The notes under the pieces are model-generated. The model saw only the letters and a list, made by a program, of their open reading frames with translations. It was not told the DNA's origin and did no database searches. From contig OX638340.1 of NCBI GenBank assembly GCA_951812955.1, positions 2,208,001-2,272,000 of the forward strand: 64,000 nucleotides of DNA, written 5' to 3'. A program made the translations under genes and the position numbers. The first letter of the stretch is position 1. Every line of letters begins with the position of its first letter. Origin of the DNA: an uncultured Gemmatimonadota bacterium. Its GTDB lineage: Bacteria; JAAXHH01. Positions 42,381-52,754 of the stretch are shown in pieces.

Positions 42381-43136
42381 ATGACTCCCCACGAAAGATA
42401 CCTCTTCGACCTGCAGGGTTTTATCGAGGTCCCGGACGCGTTGGACGCCGGGCAGCTCGCAGAACTGAACGGCATACTGGACGAGAAGATCGACGGGGCC
42501 ATGGCACCCGGCGCCACCACCCACCGATTCGGCTTCACCCTGCTCGACTGGGGACCAACCTACCGGGAACTGATCGACAATCCGCGGATAGATCCTTATC
42601 TGGAACAACTGATCGGTCCGAAGTACCGGCTGGACCACGATTATGCCGATATCATCCGAAAAGGCGACGGTCCAATCGGCACGACCCTCCACGGAGGCGC
42701 CATCCCCTTCGACCCCCTCTACTCCTACACCTGCACCAACGAAGAGATCCGTTGCGGCCTGACTGTGGTCGCCTACTACCTGAAGGACGTAAATCCAGGC
42801 GACGGCGGATTCGGCTGCGTGCCCGGCAGCCATAAGAGCAACTTCCGGTTCCCGGACGAGTGGCGCAACCTCAAGACCGACCAGCCCTTCATCCGCGCCG
42901 TAACCGGCAAGGCCGGCACCGCCGTCATATTCACCGAGGCCCTGACCCACGGCACCATGCCCTGGCACGGTGACGAGCGCCGCACCCTCTTCTACAAGTA
43001 CTCGCCCAATTCGATATCCTGGTACGCGGAATACTATGACGCCGACCGGTACGAAGGTCTGACGGAACGGCAGCAGGAGATCCTTGAGGCACCGAACGCG
43101 CGGTATGGAGAACGGTCTAAGCGTGGGGTTGTGTAG
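42381..43136 (+). CDS. phytanoyl-CoA dioxygenase (PhyH) family Fe(II)/2OG oxygenase
   Basis: 251 aa. ERYLFDLQGFIEVPDAL start; GSHK and the distal His (ALTHGTMPWHGD). Confidence 0.7.
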   Translation: MTPHERYLFDLQGFIEVPDALDAGQLAELNGILDEKIDGAMAPGATTHRFGFTLLDWGPTYRELIDNPRIDPYLEQLIGPKYRLDHDYADIIRKGDGPIGTTLHGGAIPFDPLYSYTCTNEEIRCGLTVVAYYLKDVNPGDGGFGCVPGSHKSNFRFPDEWRNLKTDQPFIRAVTGKAGTAVIFTEALTHGTMPWHGDERRTLFYKYSPNSISWYAEYYDADRYEGLTERQQEILEAPNARYGERSKRGVV

Positions 43137-43505
43137 GTGGGCTTTACGGATAGACCAGTTGATATTACGACCACATTTATTTGCTCATTGATTTACTGTA
43201 TCTCGAGGTTACAAATGGACGTTAAGGAAGCCGTAAGTACGGCCATAAAACATATTGCAGATGTATACTCGGAAGAGGGAATCTCGCATATTGGATTAGA
43301 AGAGGTAGAATACGACGAGATTAACTCACAATGGAACGTGACCGTTGGATTTGCACGTAAGTGGGACTTCCCTACTCCGGTTCTTATCCCCGTATTACCT
43401 TCACCAAGACCAAACCAAAGAACCTACAAAATCGTAGTAATTCGTGATAGAGACAAGAAGGTCACCGCAATGAAGATAAGGGATTTAGCTACGTCGAATG
43501 AATAG
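43137..43505 (+). CDS. hypothetical small protein, candidate antitoxin of the downstream PIN toxin
   Basis: Overlaps the PIN gene by 8 nt. First gene of the AT-rich island. Start ambiguous (GTG 43137 or ATG ~43215). No recognisable antitoxin fold by eye. Confidence 0.35.
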   Translation: MGFTDRPVDITTTFICSLIYCISRLQMDVKEAVSTAIKHIADVYSEEGISHIGLEEVEYDEINSQWNVTVGFARKWDFPTPVLIPVLPSPRPNQRTYKIVVIRDRDKKVTAMKIRDLATSNE

Positions 43506-43968
43506 TGTGCTTATAGATACGAATCTACTTGTCCTTTTGGTTGTAGGATCTACCGATAGAGAGTTTATTAGTCGACATAAACGCACAAAATCGTTCATAC
43601 CCAGAGACTATGACGAACTGACACGTCTGTTGTCGGGATCTCGTGAGTTATGGGTTACTTCTCACTGTCTGGCAGAGACATCGAATCTTCTGAAGCAAAC
43701 CGATAAAACAAAAGCACAGATCTTGTTACATACTCTTGCGGCCTACTGCGATATTGCCCGCGAATCGCATATTCCCAAAGAGACGGTATTTGGATACGAG
43801 AACTACCGCAGACTTGGCGTCACCGACACCGGCTTCATATACTCATCCGAAACAGTCTCTCGATCTATAACAGTAGATTTCAACTTGTACATCGAACTGA
43901 GTAACCTTGGCAGAGAAGTGATAAACTTCCACCACATCCGTGCTTCGTATCTCCAGAATGTCGATTGA
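43498..43968 (+). CDS. PIN-domain protein (VapC-like toxin)
   Basis: 156 aa. N-terminal LIDTNLLVLLVVG with the first acidic residue, plus later conserved acidic positions typical of PIN. Confidence 0.55.
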   Translation: MNSVLIDTNLLVLLVVGSTDREFISRHKRTKSFIPRDYDELTRLLSGSRELWVTSHCLAETSNLLKQTDKTKAQILLHTLAAYCDIARESHIPKETVFGYENYRRLGVTDTGFIYSSETVSRSITVDFNLYIELSNLGREVINFHHIRASYLQNVD

Positions 43969-44089
43969 CACGACGATCACACAGTTTTGCACATTCCAGT
44001 GCTTAGTTTTTGGTCAAGACCAACCTGTAGTTAAAACCAACCAATGGCCCTGAAGAAATCCCAAAATTTGGTAAACACTGCCAGGAGAG

Positions 44090-45034
44090 ATGCCACCTAT
44101 GCTTGACGAATTGGTTGGATGTATCGATGAACTTAAAGATCGTATTTCCAAATACCGAAACTCACTAAATGAGAACGAAACTCGTACTCGAATGCAGTTA
44201 ATAGATCCGCTGCTTCGTGTGCTGGGCTGGGACGTCTCCGATCCACGGTACGTTATCCCAGAATTCAAGGTGTCCGATGGTTGGGCTGACTATGCCTTAT
44301 TGCGGGATGATGGTAAGCCTGCTGCTATGGTGGAAGCTAAAAAACTGGACGAACCGTTAAAGCCCGCACACCGTGCTCAGATGTTGAAATACGCAATTGA
44401 GTTGGGTATCCCATACACTGGTTTGACAGATGGAAATCACTGGGAGTTGTACAATGTTTTCCAACCGGTACCTATGGAGGACAAACAGATCTTGGATGTT
44501 ACTTTATTGGATTCCCACTCCCACGAAAGTGCACTAAAGTTACTGCTGCTCTGGAATCCAAATCTAGACGCCGGCAGCGCGGTGAAAGCAAATGAACCTG
44601 TTCTCGTCGACACTCAGAATGGCGGTTCGATTCCTCCAATAATCGTTCCGCCACCATCGAACTGGAAGGCACTTTCAGATTACGAACCACCAGCAGGAAC
44701 ACCCGCACCTAAGGCTATTAGGCTTTGGGATGACTCAGAAAGAGAAGTGCATCATTGGTATGAAATTCTCACCATAGTAGCCGAAAAGCTCTACAACGAA
44801 AATGTCCTTACATTGGAACATATACCGATTCAATGGGCTAAAAAGACCTATAGTATTCACTCTCAACCAGTACATCCGACCGGCAACAAGTTTGAAAATC
44901 ATAAAGAAATCGGTAACTCGGGATTGTTCGTAAACGTAAATTTAAATACCGGTCAAGTACGAAATAACACCCGGAATCTACTGAAGAAATACAACATTGG
45001 TACAGAGAAGGTTTACCTCAAGGTAGCCGATTAG
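44090..45034 (+). CDS. HsdR_N-like PD-(D/E)xK nuclease-domain protein with uncharacterised C-terminal domain
   Basis: 314 aa. N-terminal NENETRTRMQLIDPLLRVLGW ... DYALLRDDGKPAAMVEAKKL is the type-I-restriction R-subunit N-terminal nuclease signature (D...EAK). The C-terminal ~160 aa match nothing I recognise. Confidence 0.55.
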   Translation: MPPMLDELVGCIDELKDRISKYRNSLNENETRTRMQLIDPLLRVLGWDVSDPRYVIPEFKVSDGWADYALLRDDGKPAAMVEAKKLDEPLKPAHRAQMLKYAIELGIPYTGLTDGNHWELYNVFQPVPMEDKQILDVTLLDSHSHESALKLLLLWNPNLDAGSAVKANEPVLVDTQNGGSIPPIIVPPPSNWKALSDYEPPAGTPAPKAIRLWDDSEREVHHWYEILTIVAEKLYNENVLTLEHIPIQWAKKTYSIHSQPVHPTGNKFENHKEIGNSGLFVNVNLNTGQVRNNTRNLLKKYNIGTEKVYLKVAD

Positions 45035-45444: not shown

Positions 45445-47622
45445 TTGATGAATTCAACGTCTGAAGAAACCACCACCCGTCCCTGTTGGTTTGTGGGCGC
45501 CAGTTATTCTGGTACGGGCGATCAAACTGAGCGATTTCTCACGGAAGGTATCTGGGAGAACGGCTTCGACAACGATCATCCGGCCGTCGCGATGACCAAA
45601 ACCATTCAGCCCGGAGACCCAATCGCGATCAAGTCCGCCTACGTTCGCAAACACGACCTACCTTTTGACAGTCGCAACCAGTTCGTATCCGTAATGGCGA
45701 TCAAGGCCATCGGGACGGTTTTAGAGAACATCGGTGATGGCCATACCGTTAAGGTTAAATGGAATAAGGAGGTAACTCCGCGAGAATGGTATTTCTTTAC
45801 TAACAGAGGTACAGTTTGGAAAGTATCGCCTGGTAGTGACTGGTATTCCGACGCCCTGATCGGATTCGCGTTCGAGAACAAGCCGCAGGATATCGATCGT
45901 TTCTTAAAAGTGCCGTATTGGAGGGAGAGGTATCGAGGAGACACGCTCAATGATCAACGGTTTGCGTGGACGAGGTTCTACGAGGCCTTTGCGGATAAGC
46001 TGCTCACATATAGGAACAAGCGCTTAGACTTAATAAATGGTATACAAGAAATAGCTGCCAGAGAGTATGCCATGTTGGTTCTGAGGGATCAGTTTCGGGA
46101 CGGTACGATCGGTCCACTCAAAGACATATGCCCATTTACTACCATCGGATTGTTCAATAAGGGAATAACGAATAGCAATCGAAGATCAATTGCATCAGAA
46201 CTCGCTGAATTGCTGGGAGTGTCAGAGTCGGTTCCGGATTCATTCGATGGAATACCTGTTCTCAACAATCAGAATTCCTGGTTTTTTTCGTATGAAAAAA
46301 ACCGACGACCGGAAGATATTGAAATCCTTTGGAATGTTTACTCCCGTGCAATTGCCTTCGCTGATTCAGATGATTCCGATGCGCGATCTGCTTTCGTCTC
46401 TGCTTACGACGACGCATCCGAGGTTTCTCACGTAGGTTGGAAACTTACATTTGGGCTGTATTGGATACGGCCTTGGGATTTCCCCGTCCTCGACACGAAT
46501 ACCCGGCGTTACCTGGACAAGAAACTCAATATTGAGATCGGACTAAATGGACCGAAAAGGGGATACTGTAGTGCGAACGACTACCTGACGGTCCATGACA
46601 CACTTGAAAAGAGGTTTCTGGAGGACACATATCCGGTTCGTTCTTTTCCAGAACTAGCACGCGAAGCCTGGTTGTATAAGCCCGGTGACCCGGATCCCCC
46701 GCCAGATAGCGGTCTGGATCCCCCGCCACCACCTGTCCCTTATTCACTCGATGATATCGTGAAAGACGGCTGTTTCATTGCCAGAGATAAACTCGAGTCG
46801 ATACTCAATCGACTCCGTACCAAGAAAAACCTCATTCTACAAGGCCCTCCAGGAACCGGGAAGACTTGGCTCGCCAGGAAGTTGGCCTACGCTTTGATCT
46901 GTGAGCGAGACGAAAGCAAGGTTCGTTCGGTACAGTTCCATCCCAATCTCTCTTACGAAGATTTCGTACGTGGTTGGCGGCCGGCGGGAGATGGTAAACT
47001 TACGCTCGTAGATGGCCCCTTCATCGCCATAAGGGACGAGGCCGAAAAAGATCCTACTACTCGATACGTCTTGGTCATCGAAGAGATCAACCGGGGCAAT
47101 CCCGCACAGATTTTCGGCGAGATGCTGACATTGTTGGAGACCGACAAGCGAACTCCAGACGAAGCCTTGGAATTGGTTTATTCAAAGACTCCGGATGAGC
47201 GATTCTTTGTTCCTAACAATCTGTTTGTCATCGGGACGATGAACATTGCTGATCGTTCACTGGCACTTGTAGACCTGGCATTACGCCGTAGATTTGCATT
47301 TATCGATCTGGAACCTACCCTTGGCAAGACTTGGCGAGACTGGGTCCATTCTAAAAACGGGATAGATAACGAGACTCTCACCGAAATTGAGCATCGTATA
47401 GATGATCTGAACCGGACGATCTCCAATGATTCCGGTCTTGGCTCGCAATTTCGCTTGGGGCACAGTTATGTGACGCCGCCGTTTGAACAGCCGATTAAAG
47501 ATGGGAGAAAGTGGTACAGGGAAGTCGTTGAAACGGAAATTGGACCACTACTCGACGAATACTGGTTCGAAGACCTCGCGAAATCTAGAAACGCAAAAAA
47601 GAAACTTTTGGATGGTTTTTAG
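45445..47622 (+). CDS. mcrB: McrB-family GTPase (AAA+), with ~440-aa uncharacterised N-terminal region
   Basis: 725 aa. Walker A LILQGPPGTGKTW. McrB signature VLVIEEINRGNPAQIFGEMLTLLE. FVIGTMNIADRS. Confidence 0.85.
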   Translation: MMNSTSEETTTRPCWFVGASYSGTGDQTERFLTEGIWENGFDNDHPAVAMTKTIQPGDPIAIKSAYVRKHDLPFDSRNQFVSVMAIKAIGTVLENIGDGHTVKVKWNKEVTPREWYFFTNRGTVWKVSPGSDWYSDALIGFAFENKPQDIDRFLKVPYWRERYRGDTLNDQRFAWTRFYEAFADKLLTYRNKRLDLINGIQEIAAREYAMLVLRDQFRDGTIGPLKDICPFTTIGLFNKGITNSNRRSIASELAELLGVSESVPDSFDGIPVLNNQNSWFFSYEKNRRPEDIEILWNVYSRAIAFADSDDSDARSAFVSAYDDASEVSHVGWKLTFGLYWIRPWDFPVLDTNTRRYLDKKLNIEIGLNGPKRGYCSANDYLTVHDTLEKRFLEDTYPVRSFPELAREAWLYKPGDPDPPPDSGLDPPPPPVPYSLDDIVKDGCFIARDKLESILNRLRTKKNLILQGPPGTGKTWLARKLAYALICERDESKVRSVQFHPNLSYEDFVRGWRPAGDGKLTLVDGPFIAIRDEAEKDPTTRYVLVIEEINRGNPAQIFGEMLTLLETDKRTPDEALELVYSKTPDERFFVPNNLFVIGTMNIADRSLALVDLALRRRFAFIDLEPTLGKTWRDWVHSKNGIDNETLTEIEHRIDDLNRTISNDSGLGSQFRLGHSYVTPPFEQPIKDGRKWYREVVETEIGPLLDEYWFEDLAKSRNAKKKLLDGF

Positions 47623-48743
47623 TGGTGAATGGCCCAGTAGTTAGTACGGCTGACGAGACGATCGAACAGGCCGGGTATATCGGTCGTATCCCTTTACGAA
47701 ATATCTGGCTGCTCATGCTTTACGCCTCTGACCTTTTCAGGCAACTTGATGCGTCTGAATACCGCTCCTTCGAAGATAATCCTGATGACCTGCCCGATCT
47801 GGTTGCCGAGATCCTATCACATGAAGTCGAACGTCGACTAAAGCGAAATCTGAGTTACGGCTACCAATACCGTAACGAAGTGCTCGGACGGGTTCGCGGA
47901 CGTATCGACCTTTTACAAACCGAAGCTCATCAACTACTGCAACGCGGCATGGTCGCCTGTCGATTCGACGAACTGACAATCGACACACCGAGGAACAGGT
48001 ACGTTCGATCCGCCCTCGAGATGATATCCAAATATGTTCGTCGAAAAGACCTGGCTCACCAGTGCAGGTCCCTCGTTGGAAGCCTTAGGCGACAGGGAGT
48101 CGTTGGAGAACGACCTGGGCGTGAGGTGACGTCAGTTGAGCGATACGGTAGACATGACGCTGTTGACCGCAAGATGGTGGATGCGGCTCGTCTTGCCTTC
48201 GAAATGGCCATTCCGACCGAGCAGACCGGTTCCAGGCACCTTCCACTACCGGACCGTGATATAAACTGGATTCGCAGACTCTATGAGAAAGGCGTTGCAG
48301 GATTCTATGATGTGGTACTTTCCAGAAGGGGATGGAATGTGTATCCGGGAACGATTCTCAGATGGCCCACGACAGTCAGAAGTCCGCGAATAGACGGGAT
48401 ACTACCCTCCATGCGGACCGATATTGTGTTGGATCATGTTGACGAAGGCCGACGGATCGTTATAGACACGAAATTCAACTCGGTTTTGTCGAGAGGTTGG
48501 TATCGAAATGAAGGGATACGAAGCGGATACATGTACCAGATCTATGCTTACCTTAGGTCGCAGGAAGAGAGTGGTGATCCGCTTGATTGTAATGCAGAGG
48601 GAATGTTTCTCCATCCGTCGGTTGGTGAGATGTTCAACGAATGGGTAGATATTCAGGGTCATCGGATCCACTTCAATACCGTTGATCTCGCAACCGATAC
48701 ACAGACCATCAGATCGCAGTTGTTGGATGCGGTGAAACCTTAA
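47622..48743 (+). CDS. mcrC: McrC-family PD-(D/E)xK nuclease subunit
   Basis: 373 aa. GTG start overlaps the mcrB stop by 1 nt. C-terminal nuclease region DIVLDHVDEGRRIVIDTKFN. Confidence 0.75.
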   Translation: MVNGPVVSTADETIEQAGYIGRIPLRNIWLLMLYASDLFRQLDASEYRSFEDNPDDLPDLVAEILSHEVERRLKRNLSYGYQYRNEVLGRVRGRIDLLQTEAHQLLQRGMVACRFDELTIDTPRNRYVRSALEMISKYVRRKDLAHQCRSLVGSLRRQGVVGERPGREVTSVERYGRHDAVDRKMVDAARLAFEMAIPTEQTGSRHLPLPDRDINWIRRLYEKGVAGFYDVVLSRRGWNVYPGTILRWPTTVRSPRIDGILPSMRTDIVLDHVDEGRRIVIDTKFNSVLSRGWYRNEGIRSGYMYQIYAYLRSQEESGDPLDCNAEGMFLHPSVGEMFNEWVDIQGHRIHFNTVDLATDTQTIRSQLLDAVKP

Positions 48744-48834
48744 ACTGACTTTGCTCTCGACATAGTCGTTCCACCAGCCCATTTCCCGCATCCGTTTGGT
48801 GTGTTCGGCAGCTTCGGTAATCTCAAGATTTGAC

Positions 48835-49761
48835 TCACCCCGCCTTCCTGAAGACCTCGAAACGACGGTCCAGCCGGTCCTGGTCCGGATGGTCACGGGT
48901 GCGTGAAGGCAGGTGCAGTCCCGATCCGTCCAGTTGCTTGAGGGCCTGGAGCATGGGACCGTCATCCTTGTCCAGCAGGCGGTCGGATACGTGCAGCCGG
49001 TAGTCGGGATCAATGCCGATCAGGTGGGCGTCAAAGGCCGCATGATGAATCTTGGACAGGGCCAAGCCGTTGGGTACGACGGGTTGTCCCAATGCCTCGT
49101 CGCCATCGGCAATGATGTGGGCGGCATCCAGTAACTGCGTTTCCGGTAGGCCGGTAATGGCACAGCGGCCGCGATAGGCGTGAAGGACAGCCTCGCGGAA
49201 CGTGGCTTGGTGGAGTCGTTCCTTGACCATGCGCAGGGCATACCGCCGCTCTACCGCGTTAATCGGAGCTTCCATCTCGGCCTGGTTGGGGTTCCCAAAG
49301 GCAAGCGTGGACTTGAGCGCGAATCCATCCCAATTGGAGATGAAGGTGGGAATGATCGCCTGATACCGGCTGGGAGACACACCGAGAAAGTAGATCACGG
49401 GAATCTGATTCTCCCAGGCAACCTTTAACCACTGGTTGTCTGCTGCTGCCGGGTCCTGTCCCATGAAGGCGTAGTCCACGGAATCGTTGCCCTCGAAAAT
49501 CTGGCTGTGGACCTGCTTTTGGTCGTCGTACCAGACTCGGCCGCCCGGTCTGGGGTACACGGTCCTGATCGAGAGAAGGTACCGCATCCGGCGCGGCTTG
49601 AATATGCCCCGCTGCGGATTGACAAGGGGGATCCTTTCGCCTTCGAATACGAACCCCGGCGCCAGTTCGTCCCTCGTAAGGTGGCCATGGGTTTCACTCA
49701 GCCGCCGCACGTGATCGAACGCGGCCATCCGCATCCTCGGATCTCGGTCGTCGACGTTCAT
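48835..49761 (-). CDS. HNH endonuclease with N-terminal putative DNA-reader domain
   Basis: 308 aa. C-terminal HNH_2-type motif LLDAAHIIADGDEALGQPVVPNGLALSKIHHAAFD. The N-terminal ~200 aa are uncharacterised. Confidence 0.6.
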   Translation of the reverse strand: MNVDDRDPRMRMAAFDHVRRLSETHGHLTRDELAPGFVFEGERIPLVNPQRGIFKPRRMRYLLSIRTVYPRPGGRVWYDDQKQVHSQIFEGNDSVDYAFMGQDPAAADNQWLKVAWENQIPVIYFLGVSPSRYQAIIPTFISNWDGFALKSTLAFGNPNQAEMEAPINAVERRYALRMVKERLHQATFREAVLHAYRGRCAITGLPETQLLDAAHIIADGDEALGQPVVPNGLALSKIHHAAFDAHLIGIDPDYRLHVSDRLLDKDDGPMLQALKQLDGSGLHLPSRTRDHPDQDRLDRRFEVFRKAG

Positions 49762-49770
49762 CTCAGTCCT

Positions 49771-50787
49771 TTACCCCCGGTAAATCCTCTCATTGTGCCA
49801 GGATAGTACTTCGGTGGACGGCTGGTCCACCGCATTCCTGGGAACGACAATCTGTTTCCCGTGCAAAGAGTAGTAATCGCGCCCGTTCTCGAATTCCTCC
49901 CGGACCTGTCCGCTGACCTCGAAGTGCAATTCAGGGGTCACCGTTACGTATCCGGAATCGAACAGCCCGTGGATGTCGCGCCTTAGCAGCAGTCCGTTCC
50001 TGGCTTCGTGGATGCCCCCTTCGCTGTAGGGACGGATGTGCGCGGCATCAAGGGCCGGCAGCGTCCGTTCGCGGGTAACTGCGCAACGGCGGTCGTAAAG
50101 GTCGGTTACCAGGGCCCTGAAAGCACCTTGACCGAGACGCGGTTTGACCAGTTGCGGTTTGCCGTAAAGGGTTTGCCCGGCCAGGAGGCCTGAGGGTTCG
50201 GCCACGATGCCGGCAGGATTTGCAGATACACTGGTTGGCTGTCGGAATTCCAAACGGCCGTTGACTGCGTCCCACAATGCCCGTCCGTCTGAGTCACCGG
50301 TACTAAATGTCTTTAGTGACACGATGTTCGGCGACCATGTCGACGGCACATCGACAAACTCGGATGCCTCGAAGAAGAAGGGTTGGGTAAGGATCCGGCA
50401 GCCAATCTTGTAATCGCTCGGCTCACGTGGGTCAACATTACGGTAACGTGAGATACGATTTCGCATTTCCTGCAATGTCTCGGCACCGTTGGCTTCCCCG
50501 AATGCTTCCCATGCAAGGGAACAAGGCATCACATTGGCATAGGCAAAAACGCCGCCGCCAACGATTACGTTGTACGGCGCGTGTAGCTTGAAGAGGAACA
50601 GTTCACCGGGCTGAAGTGCCTTGAAGTTCGTGCCAGAAGGCGCCCAGAAGTTGACCTCCTCCAGGTGCGGCTTCTGCCGGAGAGTCTTGAACCAGTCCCC
50701 GTCGGTCACGGCAACGACCAGCTTGATGTCCATAGCGCGAATTCCGGTAAACTTTGGTGCTATTGGGATACAGGCAGATCCGATCAA
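49771..50787 (-). CDS. HNH endonuclease with N-terminal PUA-like (EVE/ASCH-type) domain
   Basis: 338 aa (start possibly the internal Met at 50733). N-terminus WFKTLRQKPHLEEVNFWAPSGTNFKALQPGELFLFKLHAPYNVIVGGGVF resembles the EVE/PUA-like pattern. C-terminal HNH ALDAAHIRPYSEGGIHEARNGLLLRRDIHGLFD. Paralogous to the neighbouring gene. Confidence 0.6.
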   Translation of the reverse strand: MIGSACIPIAPKFTGIRAMDIKLVVAVTDGDWFKTLRQKPHLEEVNFWAPSGTNFKALQPGELFLFKLHAPYNVIVGGGVFAYANVMPCSLAWEAFGEANGAETLQEMRNRISRYRNVDPREPSDYKIGCRILTQPFFFEASEFVDVPSTWSPNIVSLKTFSTGDSDGRALWDAVNGRLEFRQPTSVSANPAGIVAEPSGLLAGQTLYGKPQLVKPRLGQGAFRALVTDLYDRRCAVTRERTLPALDAAHIRPYSEGGIHEARNGLLLRRDIHGLFDSGYVTVTPELHFEVSGQVREEFENGRDYYSLHGKQIVVPRNAVDQPSTEVLSWHNERIYRG

Positions 50788-51076
50788 CGGACAACCGCAA
50801 CCGTGCGTCTCGCTGATCGAGCCTTATCATCTAAAATAAAAGACGGCAACCATGGCAGGTCAAGTGCCGCCTGTGCGACCCGGTTTTTGACGTTTGGAAC
50901 ACAGAACGAGTGCTTCCAGATTGCCTTGACCAAATGTACCTGTTAGTTTACTGAACGTTGGTACACTTGATCTCATAAGTTATCAGGAGATTACGAGCGA
51001 GTAGTGAAAGGAACGATTCATATCTTATGTTGTGTAATTTAAATCATATATCGGAAATAGTACATAGGGGAGTTGT

Positions 51077-51274
51077 GTGGTGAATAGTAACTCAAAAGAT
51101 AATAACGAACGGCGATCGCCGATAAAAACCGCCAAACATGACAACTCGAGTGACGAAAACAATCCCCCAGCCAACCTGGCGGAAGCGATACGCGCCCGTT
51201 TTGCACCGTTGGGTGGGATAGAACTGGATCTTCCGCCACGCGAACCCATGCGCGAACCGCCCGAATTCAAATAA
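51077..51274 (+). CDS. small hypothetical protein (65 aa) at island boundary
   Basis: GTG start; AT-rich context; no motif. Could be non-coding. Confidence 0.2.
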   Translation: MVNSNSKDNNERRSPIKTAKHDNSSDENNPPANLAEAIRARFAPLGGIELDLPPREPMREPPEFK

Positions 51275-51359
51275 TGAGAACGCATTAGCGCTGACTGGAA
51301 ACTGTCCCATATGAACCCGGCAATTCCGCACTGGTAATCCAACCAACAAAGGACACCCC

Positions 51360-52754
51360 ATGCCCCCGATCGACATCGGCTCACGCCGCGAGCTCTTTGT
51401 AGACTCATTTCTGATCGACACCCTCACGGACGCCCACCAACATCTTCACGAACCCGTTCTAAAGGAGACGGTATTCCGCGTAGAGGAACCTCTGGAGAAC
51501 GCCTGTACGGGTTGCTACAACCTGGTACAGACAGACGGCAAAGTCCTGGTGTATTACCGCGGCTATCACCCCACGGGCAAACACGAGGATCTGCCCGAGG
51601 GTTGGGCGGAAACGCAGACGACAAACCTGCTGGTCAGCGATGACGGCATCCACTTCGAACGGCCGAACCTGGGCCTGGTGGAAGCGGAAGGTTCGAAGGA
51701 CAACAACATCCTCGTCCGGGGCCGCGAGGCACATAACTTCTGCGTCTTCCTGGACGGCAATCCGGAAGTGGCGCCCGATCAGCGTTTCAAGGCCGTCGGT
51801 GGAGAAGGCAGGGACAGTCTCTTCGGTTTCACTTCATCCGACGGATTGACCTGGAAACCGGTGCAGGACGGTCCCCTCGCGATCACGGGCGCCTTCGACT
51901 CGGTGAACGTGCCCCTTTGGGACGACTACGCGGGTTGCTACCGCCTCTTCAGCCGGTACTTCGAACAGACGGGGGAAGACGGCGTCGGGGTCCGGGCAAT
52001 TCAGAGCTGCACCTCGGAGGATTTCATCCACTGGACCACGCCCGAACATCACGTGTACGGCGAAGGCGTCCCGTTCGAGCACTTCTACACCAACGCCACC
52101 ACGCCATGCCCTGGCGCGGAACACATCCTGCTGTCCTTTCCCATGCGGTTCGTGCCGGAACGGACGAAGGACATCAAGGGCATGGATTACCCCGGGGGCG
52201 GCGTGTCCGACGCTATATTCATGTCGAGTCGGGACGGCGTCCACTGGGACCGGAGTTTCATGGACGCCTGGCTGCGCCCGGGCCTGGAAAAGCGCAACTG
52301 GACGCACCGCAACCAGACGCCGGCCGCGGGAATCGTTCCGACAGCCCCGGACGAATGGTCGATGTACGTCGCCGAGCATTACGGATGGGACACCAACGGC
52401 GTGAGGCGGGTGACCGTCCGTCCCCACGGTTTCGCCTCCGTCCGGGCAGGCTACTACGGTGGCGAACTGTTTACGAAACCCCTGACCTTCACCGGATCGA
52501 CGCTGTATATCAACTACTCGGCGTCCGCCGTGGGCGCCGTGTCCGTGGAGATTCAGGATACGGAAGGTCGAGCCTTGGAGGGATTTGCGGCAAACGACAT
52601 GGATCCCCTGTTCGGCGACGACCTGGACGCCCCGATTACGTGGAAGGGCTCCGACGGTCTGAATGGCCTGAACCGGCTGAACGGTGTGCCGGTCCGCCTG
52701 CGGTTCATCCTGAAGGACGCCGATCTCTTCTCGATCCGTTTCGGAGATTCCTGA
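51360..52754 (+). CDS. hypothetical glycoside-hydrolase-like protein (beta-propeller-type)
   Basis: 464 aa. No catalytic motif assignable by eye. Confidence 0.35.
   Translation: MPPIDIGSRRELFVDSFLIDTLTDAHQHLHEPVLKETVFRVEEPLENACTGCYNLVQTDGKVLVYYRGYHPTGKHEDLPEGWAETQTTNLLVSDDGIHFERPNLGLVEAEGSKDNNILVRGREAHNFCVFLDGNPEVAPDQRFKAVGGEGRDSLFGFTSSDGLTWKPVQDGPLAITGAFDSVNVPLWDDYAGCYRLFSRYFEQTGEDGVGVRAIQSCTSEDFIHWTTPEHHVYGEGVPFEHFYTNATTPCPGAEHILLSFPMRFVPERTKDIKGMDYPGGGVSDAIFMSSRDGVHWDRSFMDAWLRPGLEKRNWTHRNQTPAAGIVPTAPDEWSMYVAEHYGWDTNGVRRVTVRPHGFASVRAGYYGGELFTKPLTFTGSTLYINYSASAVGAVSVEIQDTEGRALEGFAANDMDPLFGDDLDAPITWKGSDGLNGLNRLNGVPVRLRFILKDADLFSIRFGDS

What the first reader, a model, noticed from the sequence alone, without database searches (positions are those of the whole stretch)
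48835..50787. Two tandem, paralogous reader-HNH endonucleases immediately after McrBC
Both proteins end in the same HNH_2-type motif (AAHI..-..NGL.L...H..FD) and have ~200-aa N-terminal domains. One N-terminal domain has an EVE/PUA-like pattern (W..dW...W...nf..l.pGelfLF.lh...ivGggvf). The other is divergent. EVE/PUA-HNH and SRA-HNH proteins are modification-dependent restriction enzymes. Two diverged copies next to McrBC suggest layered recognition of different DNA modifications or of phosphorothioate. They could also reflect an arms-race duplication.
Basis: partly seen in the sequence, partly recalled or inferred. Interest (0 to 1): 0.6.

Follow-up and report, generated by a model that had tools for sequence, protein, structure and literature searches.

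The report
Two stacked modified-DNA-reading HNH nucleases
Two adjacent genes each fuse a different predicted "modified-base reader" domain to an HNH DNA-cutting domain, so they are most likely two separate restriction enzymes against modified foreign DNA; this is a known kind of defence, and the neighbouring McrBC is unrelated to them.

Summary
Two intact minus-strand genes, A (48835-49761, 308 aa) and B (49771-50733, 320 aa), both end in a Pfam HNH_2 nuclease domain. Those domains are 29% identical; the N-terminal domains show no sequence similarity.

They are not a local duplication. Each belongs to a large family that is 65-75% identical across many phyla. About half of each family occurs alone. 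When paired, the order is always B then A, with a 6-13 nt spacer in 43 of 44 pairs.

No sequence signature separates paired from solo copies, so two autonomous enzymes travelling as one bicistronic cassette is the best reading.

McrBC is convergent, has lower GC, and is absent from close relatives that keep B-A at the same site; the linkage is incidental. Phosphorothioate sensing is unsupported. Target modifications remain unknown.

Verdict: new members of a known kind, moderate interest.

The parts
49771..50733 (-). Gene B: PUA-like reader - linker - HNH endonuclease, 320 aa. The ORF is open up to a TTG at 50787, but homologues start at the ATG at 50733.
   Evidence: The family is 306-320 aa, with mean column identity 79%.
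50254..50733 (-). B reader domain (residues 1-160): PUA-superfamily fold in the ASCH/EVE/YTH group. Invariant residues include T10, W14, F15, W30-x-P32 and W75.
50149..50253 (-). B inter-domain linker (residues ~161-195), variable in length. The Gemmatimonadota subgroup carries a 14-aa insertion here.
   Evidence: Alignment A2. It sits in the same position as the VcaM4I linker helix 148-178 (PMC7897488).
49771..50148 (-). B HNH_2 nuclease domain (residues ~196-320) and stop codon. Invariant H232, N246 and H255.
   Evidence: Pfam HNH_2 E 3.9e-12. Matches VcaM4I (PDB 6yex) at E 4.5e-7 with the single sequence and 9.4e-9 with the profile.
49762..49770 (-). 9-nt B-A spacer (AGGACTGAG) holding a Shine-Dalgarno-like AGGA before the A start codon. 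This is a bicistronic arrangement.
   Evidence: Sequence. The spacer is 6-13 nt in 43 of 44 intact pairs from other genomes.
48835..49761 (-). Gene A: SRA-like reader - HNH endonuclease, 308 aa.
   Evidence: The family is almost uniformly 308 aa, with mean column identity 80%.
49258..49761 (-). A reader domain (residues 1-168): divergent SRA-like fold. Invariant motifs are NPQRGIFKP, LLSI-T, Y78-x-D80-Q81 and Y97-AFMG.
48835..49257 (-). A HNH_2 nuclease domain with its preceding helix (residues ~169-308) and stop codon. Invariant H215, N231 and H239/H240.
   Evidence: Pfam HNH_2 E 5.2e-11. PADLOC HNH model PDLC04132 E 1.6e-28 over residues 140-304.
45445..48743 (+). Neighbouring McrB (45445-47622) and McrC (47622-48743). 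This is context only: an independent, variable module convergent with A.
   Evidence: AAA_5 and McrBC Pfam hits; NCBIfam McrC above its cut-off. Absent from L002-L005, which keep B-A at the same site. GC 0.48-0.51 against 0.59 for B-A.

Best explanation
A and B are two separate, self-sufficient Type IV (modification-dependent) restriction endonucleases, transcribed as one B-then-A operon.

Each protein would dimerise through its HNH domain, as TagI and VcaM4I do. Its N-terminal reader would flip a modified base out of foreign DNA into a pocket, and the HNH pair would then cut nearby. A uses a divergent SRA-like reader and B an ASCH/EVE/YTH-like reader, so together they probably cover two different modification types or sequence contexts.

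Shown here: the domain content, the intact catalytic motifs, the fold class of both readers, the recurrent cassette, the autonomy of each gene, the lack of a conserved methyltransferase partner, and the independence from McrBC.

Inferred only: modification dependence, base flipping, homodimerisation, and which modifications are read.
For: - Both carry HNH_2 with invariant His/Asn/His. B's HNH is homologous to the solved EVE-HNH enzyme VcaM4I.
- Reader folds: A is SRA-like and B is PUA-like in the ASCH/YTH/EVE group. The size and reader-linker-HNH layout match VcaM4I and TagI (PMC7897488; PMC6212794 abstract).
- Autonomy, A side: of 78 loci anchored on A, 24 have an intact B directly upstream, 10 have a partial B or one cut by the contig end, and about 42 have A alone.
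- Autonomy, B side: of 80 loci anchored on B, 31 have A downstream, 32 have B alone with at least 1 kb of downstream sequence, and 17 are undetermined.
- Remnants of either gene sit beside an intact partner: B truncated in L001, L054 and L070; A truncated in L127, L140 and L165.
- Paired and solo copies are not separate clades. Nearest-neighbour label concordance is 0.64 against 0.50 in shuffles, mean identities are equal, and no alignment column discriminates them.
- No other neighbouring gene family recurs; HsdM appears in only 8 of 78 loci. This fits the published observation that PUA-nuclease genes rarely sit beside methyltransferases (PMC6765204).
- The pair travels as a unit: pairwise identities of A and of B correlate at r = 0.79 across 44 pairs, and the spacer is fixed at 6-13 nt.
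Against: - There is no biochemical evidence for any member of either family. Public annotations say only 'HNH endonuclease' or 'putative restriction endonuclease'.
- Both AF2 models are of moderate confidence (pLDDT 70 and 73). The most conserved motif of A (residues 49-79) lies in the low-confidence part.
- Neither reader is detected by Pfam SAD_SRA, EVE, ASCH or YTH models. Foldseek E-values for A are not significant. Pocket residues could not be verified.
- HNH_2 also includes modification-independent Type II enzymes such as HphI and BbrI (PMC5714182).
- Cross-phylum conservation of 65-75% is unusually high for restriction enzymes and is not explained.
Confidence: 0.6

Rival explanations
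1. A and B form an A/B heterodimer through their homologous HNH domains. The resulting nuclease has two different readers, and either needs two different marks or cuts one strand per subunit.
For: The order is strictly B then A, with a 6-13 nt spacer and an RBS-like AGGA, which suggests coupled, stoichiometric expression. The two genes are co-inherited, r = 0.79. Known reader-HNH enzymes dimerise through their HNH domains (PMC7897488; TagI abstract).
Against: About half of each family occurs without the other. Either gene persists beside a decayed partner. No clade or residue signature marks paired copies. The HNH domains are only 29% identical.
Confidence: 0.12
2. One or both are not modification-dependent. 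They could be orphan sequence-specific HNH_2 (Type II-like) nucleases, selfish or homing-type nucleases, or nucleases whose PUA-like domain reads RNA or damaged DNA rather than epigenetic marks.
For: HNH_2 includes Type II enzymes with unassigned recognition domains (PMC5714182). ASCH and YTH domains, the top structural matches of B, mostly bind RNA. Very high conservation combined with a patchy distribution across phyla resembles selfish elements.
Against: No cognate methyltransferase recurs nearby, and a modification-independent REase would need one. There is no intron, intein or target-gene context. The genes lie in variable defence contexts: McrBC, type I and type ISP RM neighbours. The structural matches include several SRA-, EVE- or YTH-type readers of restriction enzymes: TagI, ScoMcrA, MspJI, LpnPI, AbaSI, VcaM4I and the T. 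gammatolerans McrB N-domain.
Confidence: 0.18
3. They sense phosphorothioate-modified DNA, like ScoMcrA/SprMcrA.
Against: The NCBIfam match covers only the HNH part and scores 55-58 bits against a cut-off of 180. ScoMcrA also contains an SRA domain, which is the likely matching part, since all the other top hits are SRA domains. No dnd or ssp genes recur nearby.
Confidence: 0.04

Closest known systems
SRA-HNH Type IV endonucleases (TagI, ScoA3IV/Sco5333, TbiR51I)
   Different: A's reader is invisible to SRA sequence models, whereas the UHRF1 SRA sequence finds TagI at E 1.4e-20. A's HNH did not match TagI or any solved HNH by sequence. Specificity is unknown.
EVE-HNH Type IV endonucleases (VcaM4I, TspA15I, CmeDI)
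   Different: B's reader is not recognised by the Pfam EVE model. Structurally it is as close to ASCH (9.7) and YTH (9.0) as to EVE, so the clade and the preferred base (5mC/5hmC or 6mA) are open.
ScoA3V (Sco5330), a PUA-like-HNH with 6mA-stimulated nicking, encoded three genes from ScoA3IV (Sco5333) in S. coelicolor
   Same: This is a precedent for a non-EVE PUA-like reader fused to HNH, and for a PUA-like-HNH and an SRA-HNH lying close together in one genome (PMC6765204).
   Different: The Streptomyces genes are not an adjacent bicistronic pair, and ScoA3V homologues were reported only in Actinomycetales. Sequence relatedness to B could not be tested because no ScoA3V sequence was available here.
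ScoMcrA / SprMcrA (SBD-SRA-HNH or SBD-HNH, phosphorothioate-dependent)
   Different: No sulfur-binding domain was detected, and the NCBIfam PT model is matched only on the HNH part, far below its cut-off.
McrBC (the neighbour at 45445-48743)
   Same: Also a modification-dependent restriction system, located in the same variable region.
   Different: A GTPase-driven two-subunit machine on the opposite strand, with lower GC, present or absent independently of B-A in close relatives.

Membership tests
SRA-HNH (TagI/ScoA3IV) - gene A | C-terminal HNH beta-beta-alpha-metal nuclease with a conserved His...Asn...His | tested here: met
   Pfam HNH_2 E 5.2e-11. H215, N231 and H239/H240 are invariant in 18 diverse homologues.
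SRA-HNH (TagI/ScoA3IV) - gene A | N-terminal domain recognisable as SAD_SRA by sequence | tested here: not met
   No Pfam hit at E<=10. hhalign against the UHRF1 SRA gives probability 0.1-0.2%. The same UHRF1 sequence finds TagI at 1.4e-20.
SRA-HNH (TagI/ScoA3IV) - gene A | N-terminal domain with the SRA fold | tested here: met
SRA-HNH (TagI/ScoA3IV) - gene A | Pocket for a flipped 5mC/5hmC (aromatic pair plus Asp) | tested here: inconclusive
   Invariant Y78, D80, Q81 and Y97 are candidates. They lie in or near the low-confidence segment, and no residue-level structural alignment was available.
SRA-HNH and EVE-HNH - both genes | Cleavage dependent on DNA modification | not testable with these tools
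   This needs enzyme assays or in vivo restriction tests.
SRA-HNH and EVE-HNH - both genes | No cognate methyltransferase in the operon | tested here: met
   Clustering of neighbours over 78 loci shows no recurrent partner other than B; HsdM appears in 8 loci.
EVE-HNH (VcaM4I/TspA15I) - gene B | HNH domain homologous to VcaM4I's | tested here: met
   PDB 6yex at E 4.5e-7 and 9.4e-9 with the family profile.
EVE-HNH (VcaM4I/TspA15I) - gene B | N-terminal domain recognisable as EVE (PF01878) by sequence | tested here: not met
   No Pfam hit at E<=10 for residues 1-160. The PDB profile search aligns only the HNH part.
EVE-HNH (VcaM4I/TspA15I) - gene B | N-terminal PUA-superfamily fold | tested here: met
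Phosphorothioate-dependent SBD-HNH (NCBIfam NF045808) | Whole-protein score above the curated cut-off, with the sulfur-binding domain matched | tested here: not met
   54.6 and 57.5 bits against a cut-off of 180. Only profile positions ~157-284 (the HNH part) matched.
McrBC-associated accessory genes | Conserved linkage to McrBC across genomes | tested here: not met
   McrBC is adjacent only in L001, L006 and L087 among 166 loci. It is absent in L002-L005, which keep B-A at the syntenic site.

The most novel reading that the evidence does not exclude
The B-then-A cassette is a distinct, widely mobile two-reader defence unit in which the SRA-like-HNH and PUA-like-HNH proteins cooperate. They might form a heterodimer, or one might relieve the other's auto-inhibition. 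That would give coincidence detection or a broadened range of modified-DNA targets, and such a functional constraint could explain the fixed gene order, the 6-13 nt spacer and the unusually high cross-phylum conservation.
Probability: 0.12. Interest if true: 0.6.

Novelty: new member of a known kind. Interest (0 to 1): 0.35.

Why it matters
Reader-HNH enzymes are useful tools for mapping DNA modifications, and they shape which modified phages can infect a host.

These two families are large: the profile of A's reader alone finds 1832 clusters at 50% identity. They are spread over many phyla and are very common in sponge-symbiont and soil genomes. They are annotated only as 'HNH endonuclease', and their reader domains are not covered by Pfam.

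Assigning them to the SRA-like and ASCH/EVE/YTH-like reader classes gives testable specificity hypotheses. It also names cultured sources: a Methylibium petroleiphilum PM1 plasmid for A and a Mesorhizobium amorphae plasmid for B.

The recurrent bicistronic cassette is a natural case for testing whether two reader-nucleases act independently or together.

The finding does not reveal a new mechanism, and the link to McrBC is incidental.

Tried and rejected
- Sequence-level assignment of the N-domains failed. Pfam at E<=10 found nothing. PDB phmmer and profile searches found nothing beyond VcaM4I's HNH. hhalign of A profiles against the UHRF1 SRA was not significant; its best local match, NPQRGIFKPR against VSESGVHRPH, is suggestive only.
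- hhalign of A's N-domain against B's N-domain showed no similarity.
- I looked for a bridge to canonical SRA through distant relatives. The representative search lists only the best 150 hits, mostly fragments, and ten divergent full-length members still show only HNH_2 in Pfam.
- I looked for a conserved partner such as a methyltransferase, dnd/ssp genes or McrBC. None was found.
- I looked for a 'paired' subfamily or discriminating residues. None was found.
- A phage origin is not supported: each gene has only 4 hits among 2.9 million viral contigs.
- Promoter and terminator scans of 48600-51400 gave nothing above chance. There are no tRNA genes in the window.
- 'Recent tandem duplication' and 'PT sensor' were considered and rejected, as set out above.

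Full report
**What is there**

The minus strand carries two back-to-back ORFs. Gene A runs 48835-49761 (308 aa). Gene B is an ORF at 49771-50787 (338 aa). Homologues of B are 306-320 aa and all begin at the internal Met (MDIKL.../MGINL...), so the real gene is 49771-50733, 320 aa.

B ends in TAA. Nine bases later (AGGACTGAG, with a Shine-Dalgarno-like AGGA) comes the ATG of A. This is a bicistronic layout with B first.

Both proteins pass the Pfam threshold for HNH_2: A at E 5.2e-11 and B at E 3.9e-12. Their His...Asn...His positions are invariant across diverse homologues: A H215/N231/H239-240 and B H232/N246/H255. Both genes are full length relative to their families.

**How the two relate to each other**

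Only the C-terminal ~123 residues align, at 29% identity and E 5e-11. The N-terminal ~160 residues show no similarity by BLASTP or by profile-profile comparison.

Each protein is 65-75% identical to orthologues in very distant bacteria, with mean column identity around 80%. So these are members of two old, distinct families that share a nuclease domain. They are not a recent local duplication.

**The N-terminal domains**

No sequence method assigns either one. Pfam gives nothing even at E<=10. PDB sequence and profile searches find only VcaM4I's HNH domain, and only for B.

I modelled each N-domain with AlphaFold2 on alignments of about 70 homologues. The alignments have low diversity, so confidence is moderate: A pLDDT 70 with residues 49-79 poorly defined, and B pLDDT 73.

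Foldseek independently ranks ten SRA structures first, but with non-significant E-values of 0.07-0.5.

So A is an SRA-like-HNH and B is a PUA-like (ASCH/EVE/YTH group)-HNH.

A's reader is not a canonical SAD_SRA. The UHRF1 SRA sequence finds TagI at 1.4e-20 but does not find A's family. The best, non-significant, local match pairs A's invariant GIFKP with SRA's GVHRP.

**Distribution and the cassette**

A scan of one genome per species found A in 386 genomes. These include Gemmatimonadota, Acidobacteriota, Alpha-, Beta- and Gammaproteobacteria, Nitrospirales and Dehalococcoidia, and many are sponge-associated MAGs.

In the 78 loci anchored on A that were fetched:
- 24 have an intact B directly upstream on the same strand;
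- 10 more have a partial B or one cut by the contig end;
- about 42 have A alone.

In the 80 metagenome loci anchored on B:
- 31 have A directly downstream;
- 32 have B alone, with at least 1 kb of downstream sequence;
- 17 are undetermined.

The order is always B then A. The spacer is 6-13 nt in 43 of 44 intact pairs.

Across pairs, the divergence of A tracks that of B (r = 0.79), so the pair moves as a unit. Paired and solo copies nevertheless interleave:
- nearest-neighbour label concordance is 0.64 against 0.50 in shuffles;
- mean identities within and between the two classes are equal;
- no alignment column separates them.

Remnants of either gene occur next to an intact partner. In the closest genome, OY762445.1 (L001), B's whole reader domain is deleted while A is intact.

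Solo copies in cultured bacteria are annotated only as 'HNH endonuclease'. Examples are A on the Methylibium petroleiphilum PM1 plasmid, and B on a Mesorhizobium amorphae plasmid next to a type ISP enzyme.

Both genes are rare in viral contigs, with 4 hits each. No other neighbouring gene family recurs, and in particular no methyltransferase does.

**Relation to McrBC**

McrB (45445-47622) and McrC (47622-48743) are on the plus strand and convergent with A.

In the window's own lineage, B-A sits at a fixed chromosomal site between the genes at 42381-43136 and 51360-52754. McrBC is present there in the window, L001, L006 and L087, and absent in L002-L005.

B-A has host-like GC (0.59). McrBC and the genes to its left have GC 0.45-0.51.

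The similarity patterns are also mosaic. L087 has McrBC 96-99% identical to the window but B-A only 85-87%. L001 shows the reverse. McrBC is therefore a separately acquired, variable insert in a hotspot next to a resident cassette. The adjacency is typical defence-island stacking, not a functional unit.

**Most likely mechanism**

This is by analogy with solved relatives. VcaM4I has an EVE domain (1-147), a linker helix (148-178) and an HNH domain (179-309). It dimerises through the HNH domains, flips 5mC or 5hmC into an EVE pocket, and is auto-inhibited by the linker (PMC7897488). TagI is a dimer whose nuclease domains jointly form the DNA site, with separate pockets for modified bases (PMC6212794 abstract).

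A and B have the same layout. I therefore infer that each forms a homodimer, reads a modified base with its N-domain and cuts nearby. Having two different reader classes suggests two different targets. SRA readers typically take 5mC or 5hmC. The ASCH/EVE/YTH group includes both 5mC/5hmC and 6mA readers, and ScoA3V is a PUA-like-HNH stimulated by 6mA (PMC6765204).

Everything about substrate and oligomeric state is inference.

**Rivals**

- An obligate A/B heteromer is made unlikely by the frequent solo occurrence of both genes and by the lack of any pairing signature.
- Phosphorothioate sensing has no support. The NCBIfam PT model matches only the HNH part, far below its cut-off.

**Verdict**

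These are new, uncharacterised members of the known class of PUA-superfamily reader-HNH Type IV enzymes.

The modestly new points are:
- the very divergent SRA-like reader of A;
- the size and cross-phylum conservation of both families;
- the recurrent fixed-geometry B-A cassette.

Interest is moderate at 0.35. The most novel reading that the evidence does not exclude is cooperative two-reader action, at about 12% probability.

Noticed in passing
window 45445-46740 (McrB N-terminal ~430 aa): The long N-terminal region of McrB has no Pfam hit even at E<=10. Among relatives it diverges much faster than the AAA+ part: 61-65% against 82-87% identity in L001 and L006, yet 99% in L087. This fits a swappable reader domain of unknown specificity.
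   Followed up: partly
window 43137-45034: The low-GC (0.45) left part of the island holds a 122-aa ORF overlapping a 156-aa ORF by 8 nt. The layout looks like a toxin-antitoxin pair, but neither has a hit in Pfam, NCBIfam or PADLOC. Next to them is a 314-aa protein whose only hit is a weak HSDR_N (type I R-subunit N-terminal nuclease) match.
   Followed up: partly
L001 9867-9963, corresponding to window 50192-50831: In the closest genome (OY762445.1), B's reader domain and about 100 nt upstream are replaced by ~97 nt of unrelated sequence. This leaves an in-frame HNH-only remnant with no obvious start codon, next to an intact A. In VcaM4I, an HNH domain without its linker is toxic, so this remnant is probably silent.
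   Followed up: yes
L087 and L001 compared with window 45445-50733: The similarity is mosaic. L087 has McrBC 96-99% identical to the window but B-A only 85-87%. L001 has B-A at 93-94% but McrB at 68% overall (61% in the N-terminal part). This implies recombination between the adjacent defence modules.
   Followed up: partly
L058 1738-2660 and 10001-10924; L049 and L051 (same MAG): Some genomes carry two copies of gene A. In a Candidatus Foliamicus MAG the two are 8 kb apart, and one Vicinamibacterales MAG has copies on two contigs.
   Followed up: no
L127, L140, L165 (A remnants); L047, L054, L070, L036 (B remnants): One cassette member appears truncated or degenerate next to an intact partner. 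These were not checked individually for frameshifts as opposed to assembly errors.
   Followed up: no
P0288 and P0302: Two proteins of 307 and 311 aa match A's reader domain strongly (E 1e-52 and 7e-47) but have no HNH_2 hit in Pfam even at E<=1. They may carry a diverged or different effector domain.
   Followed up: no
window 50734-51359: A roughly 620-nt non-coding stretch with lower GC separates B from the divergently oriented gene at 51360. The consensus scan found no sigma-70-like promoter there. Most of it (window 50832-51305) is 85% identical in L001, and a further piece (51339-51500, which runs into the gene at 51360) is 88% identical.
   Followed up: partly
loci L001-L078 (record titles): A large share of the genomes carrying A or B-A are sponge-associated MAGs, for example Poriferihabitaceae, Porisulfidus and bins named SB0665, COS2, CAR1 and APA. 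The window's lineage appears to be Gemmatimonadota-like.
   Followed up: no
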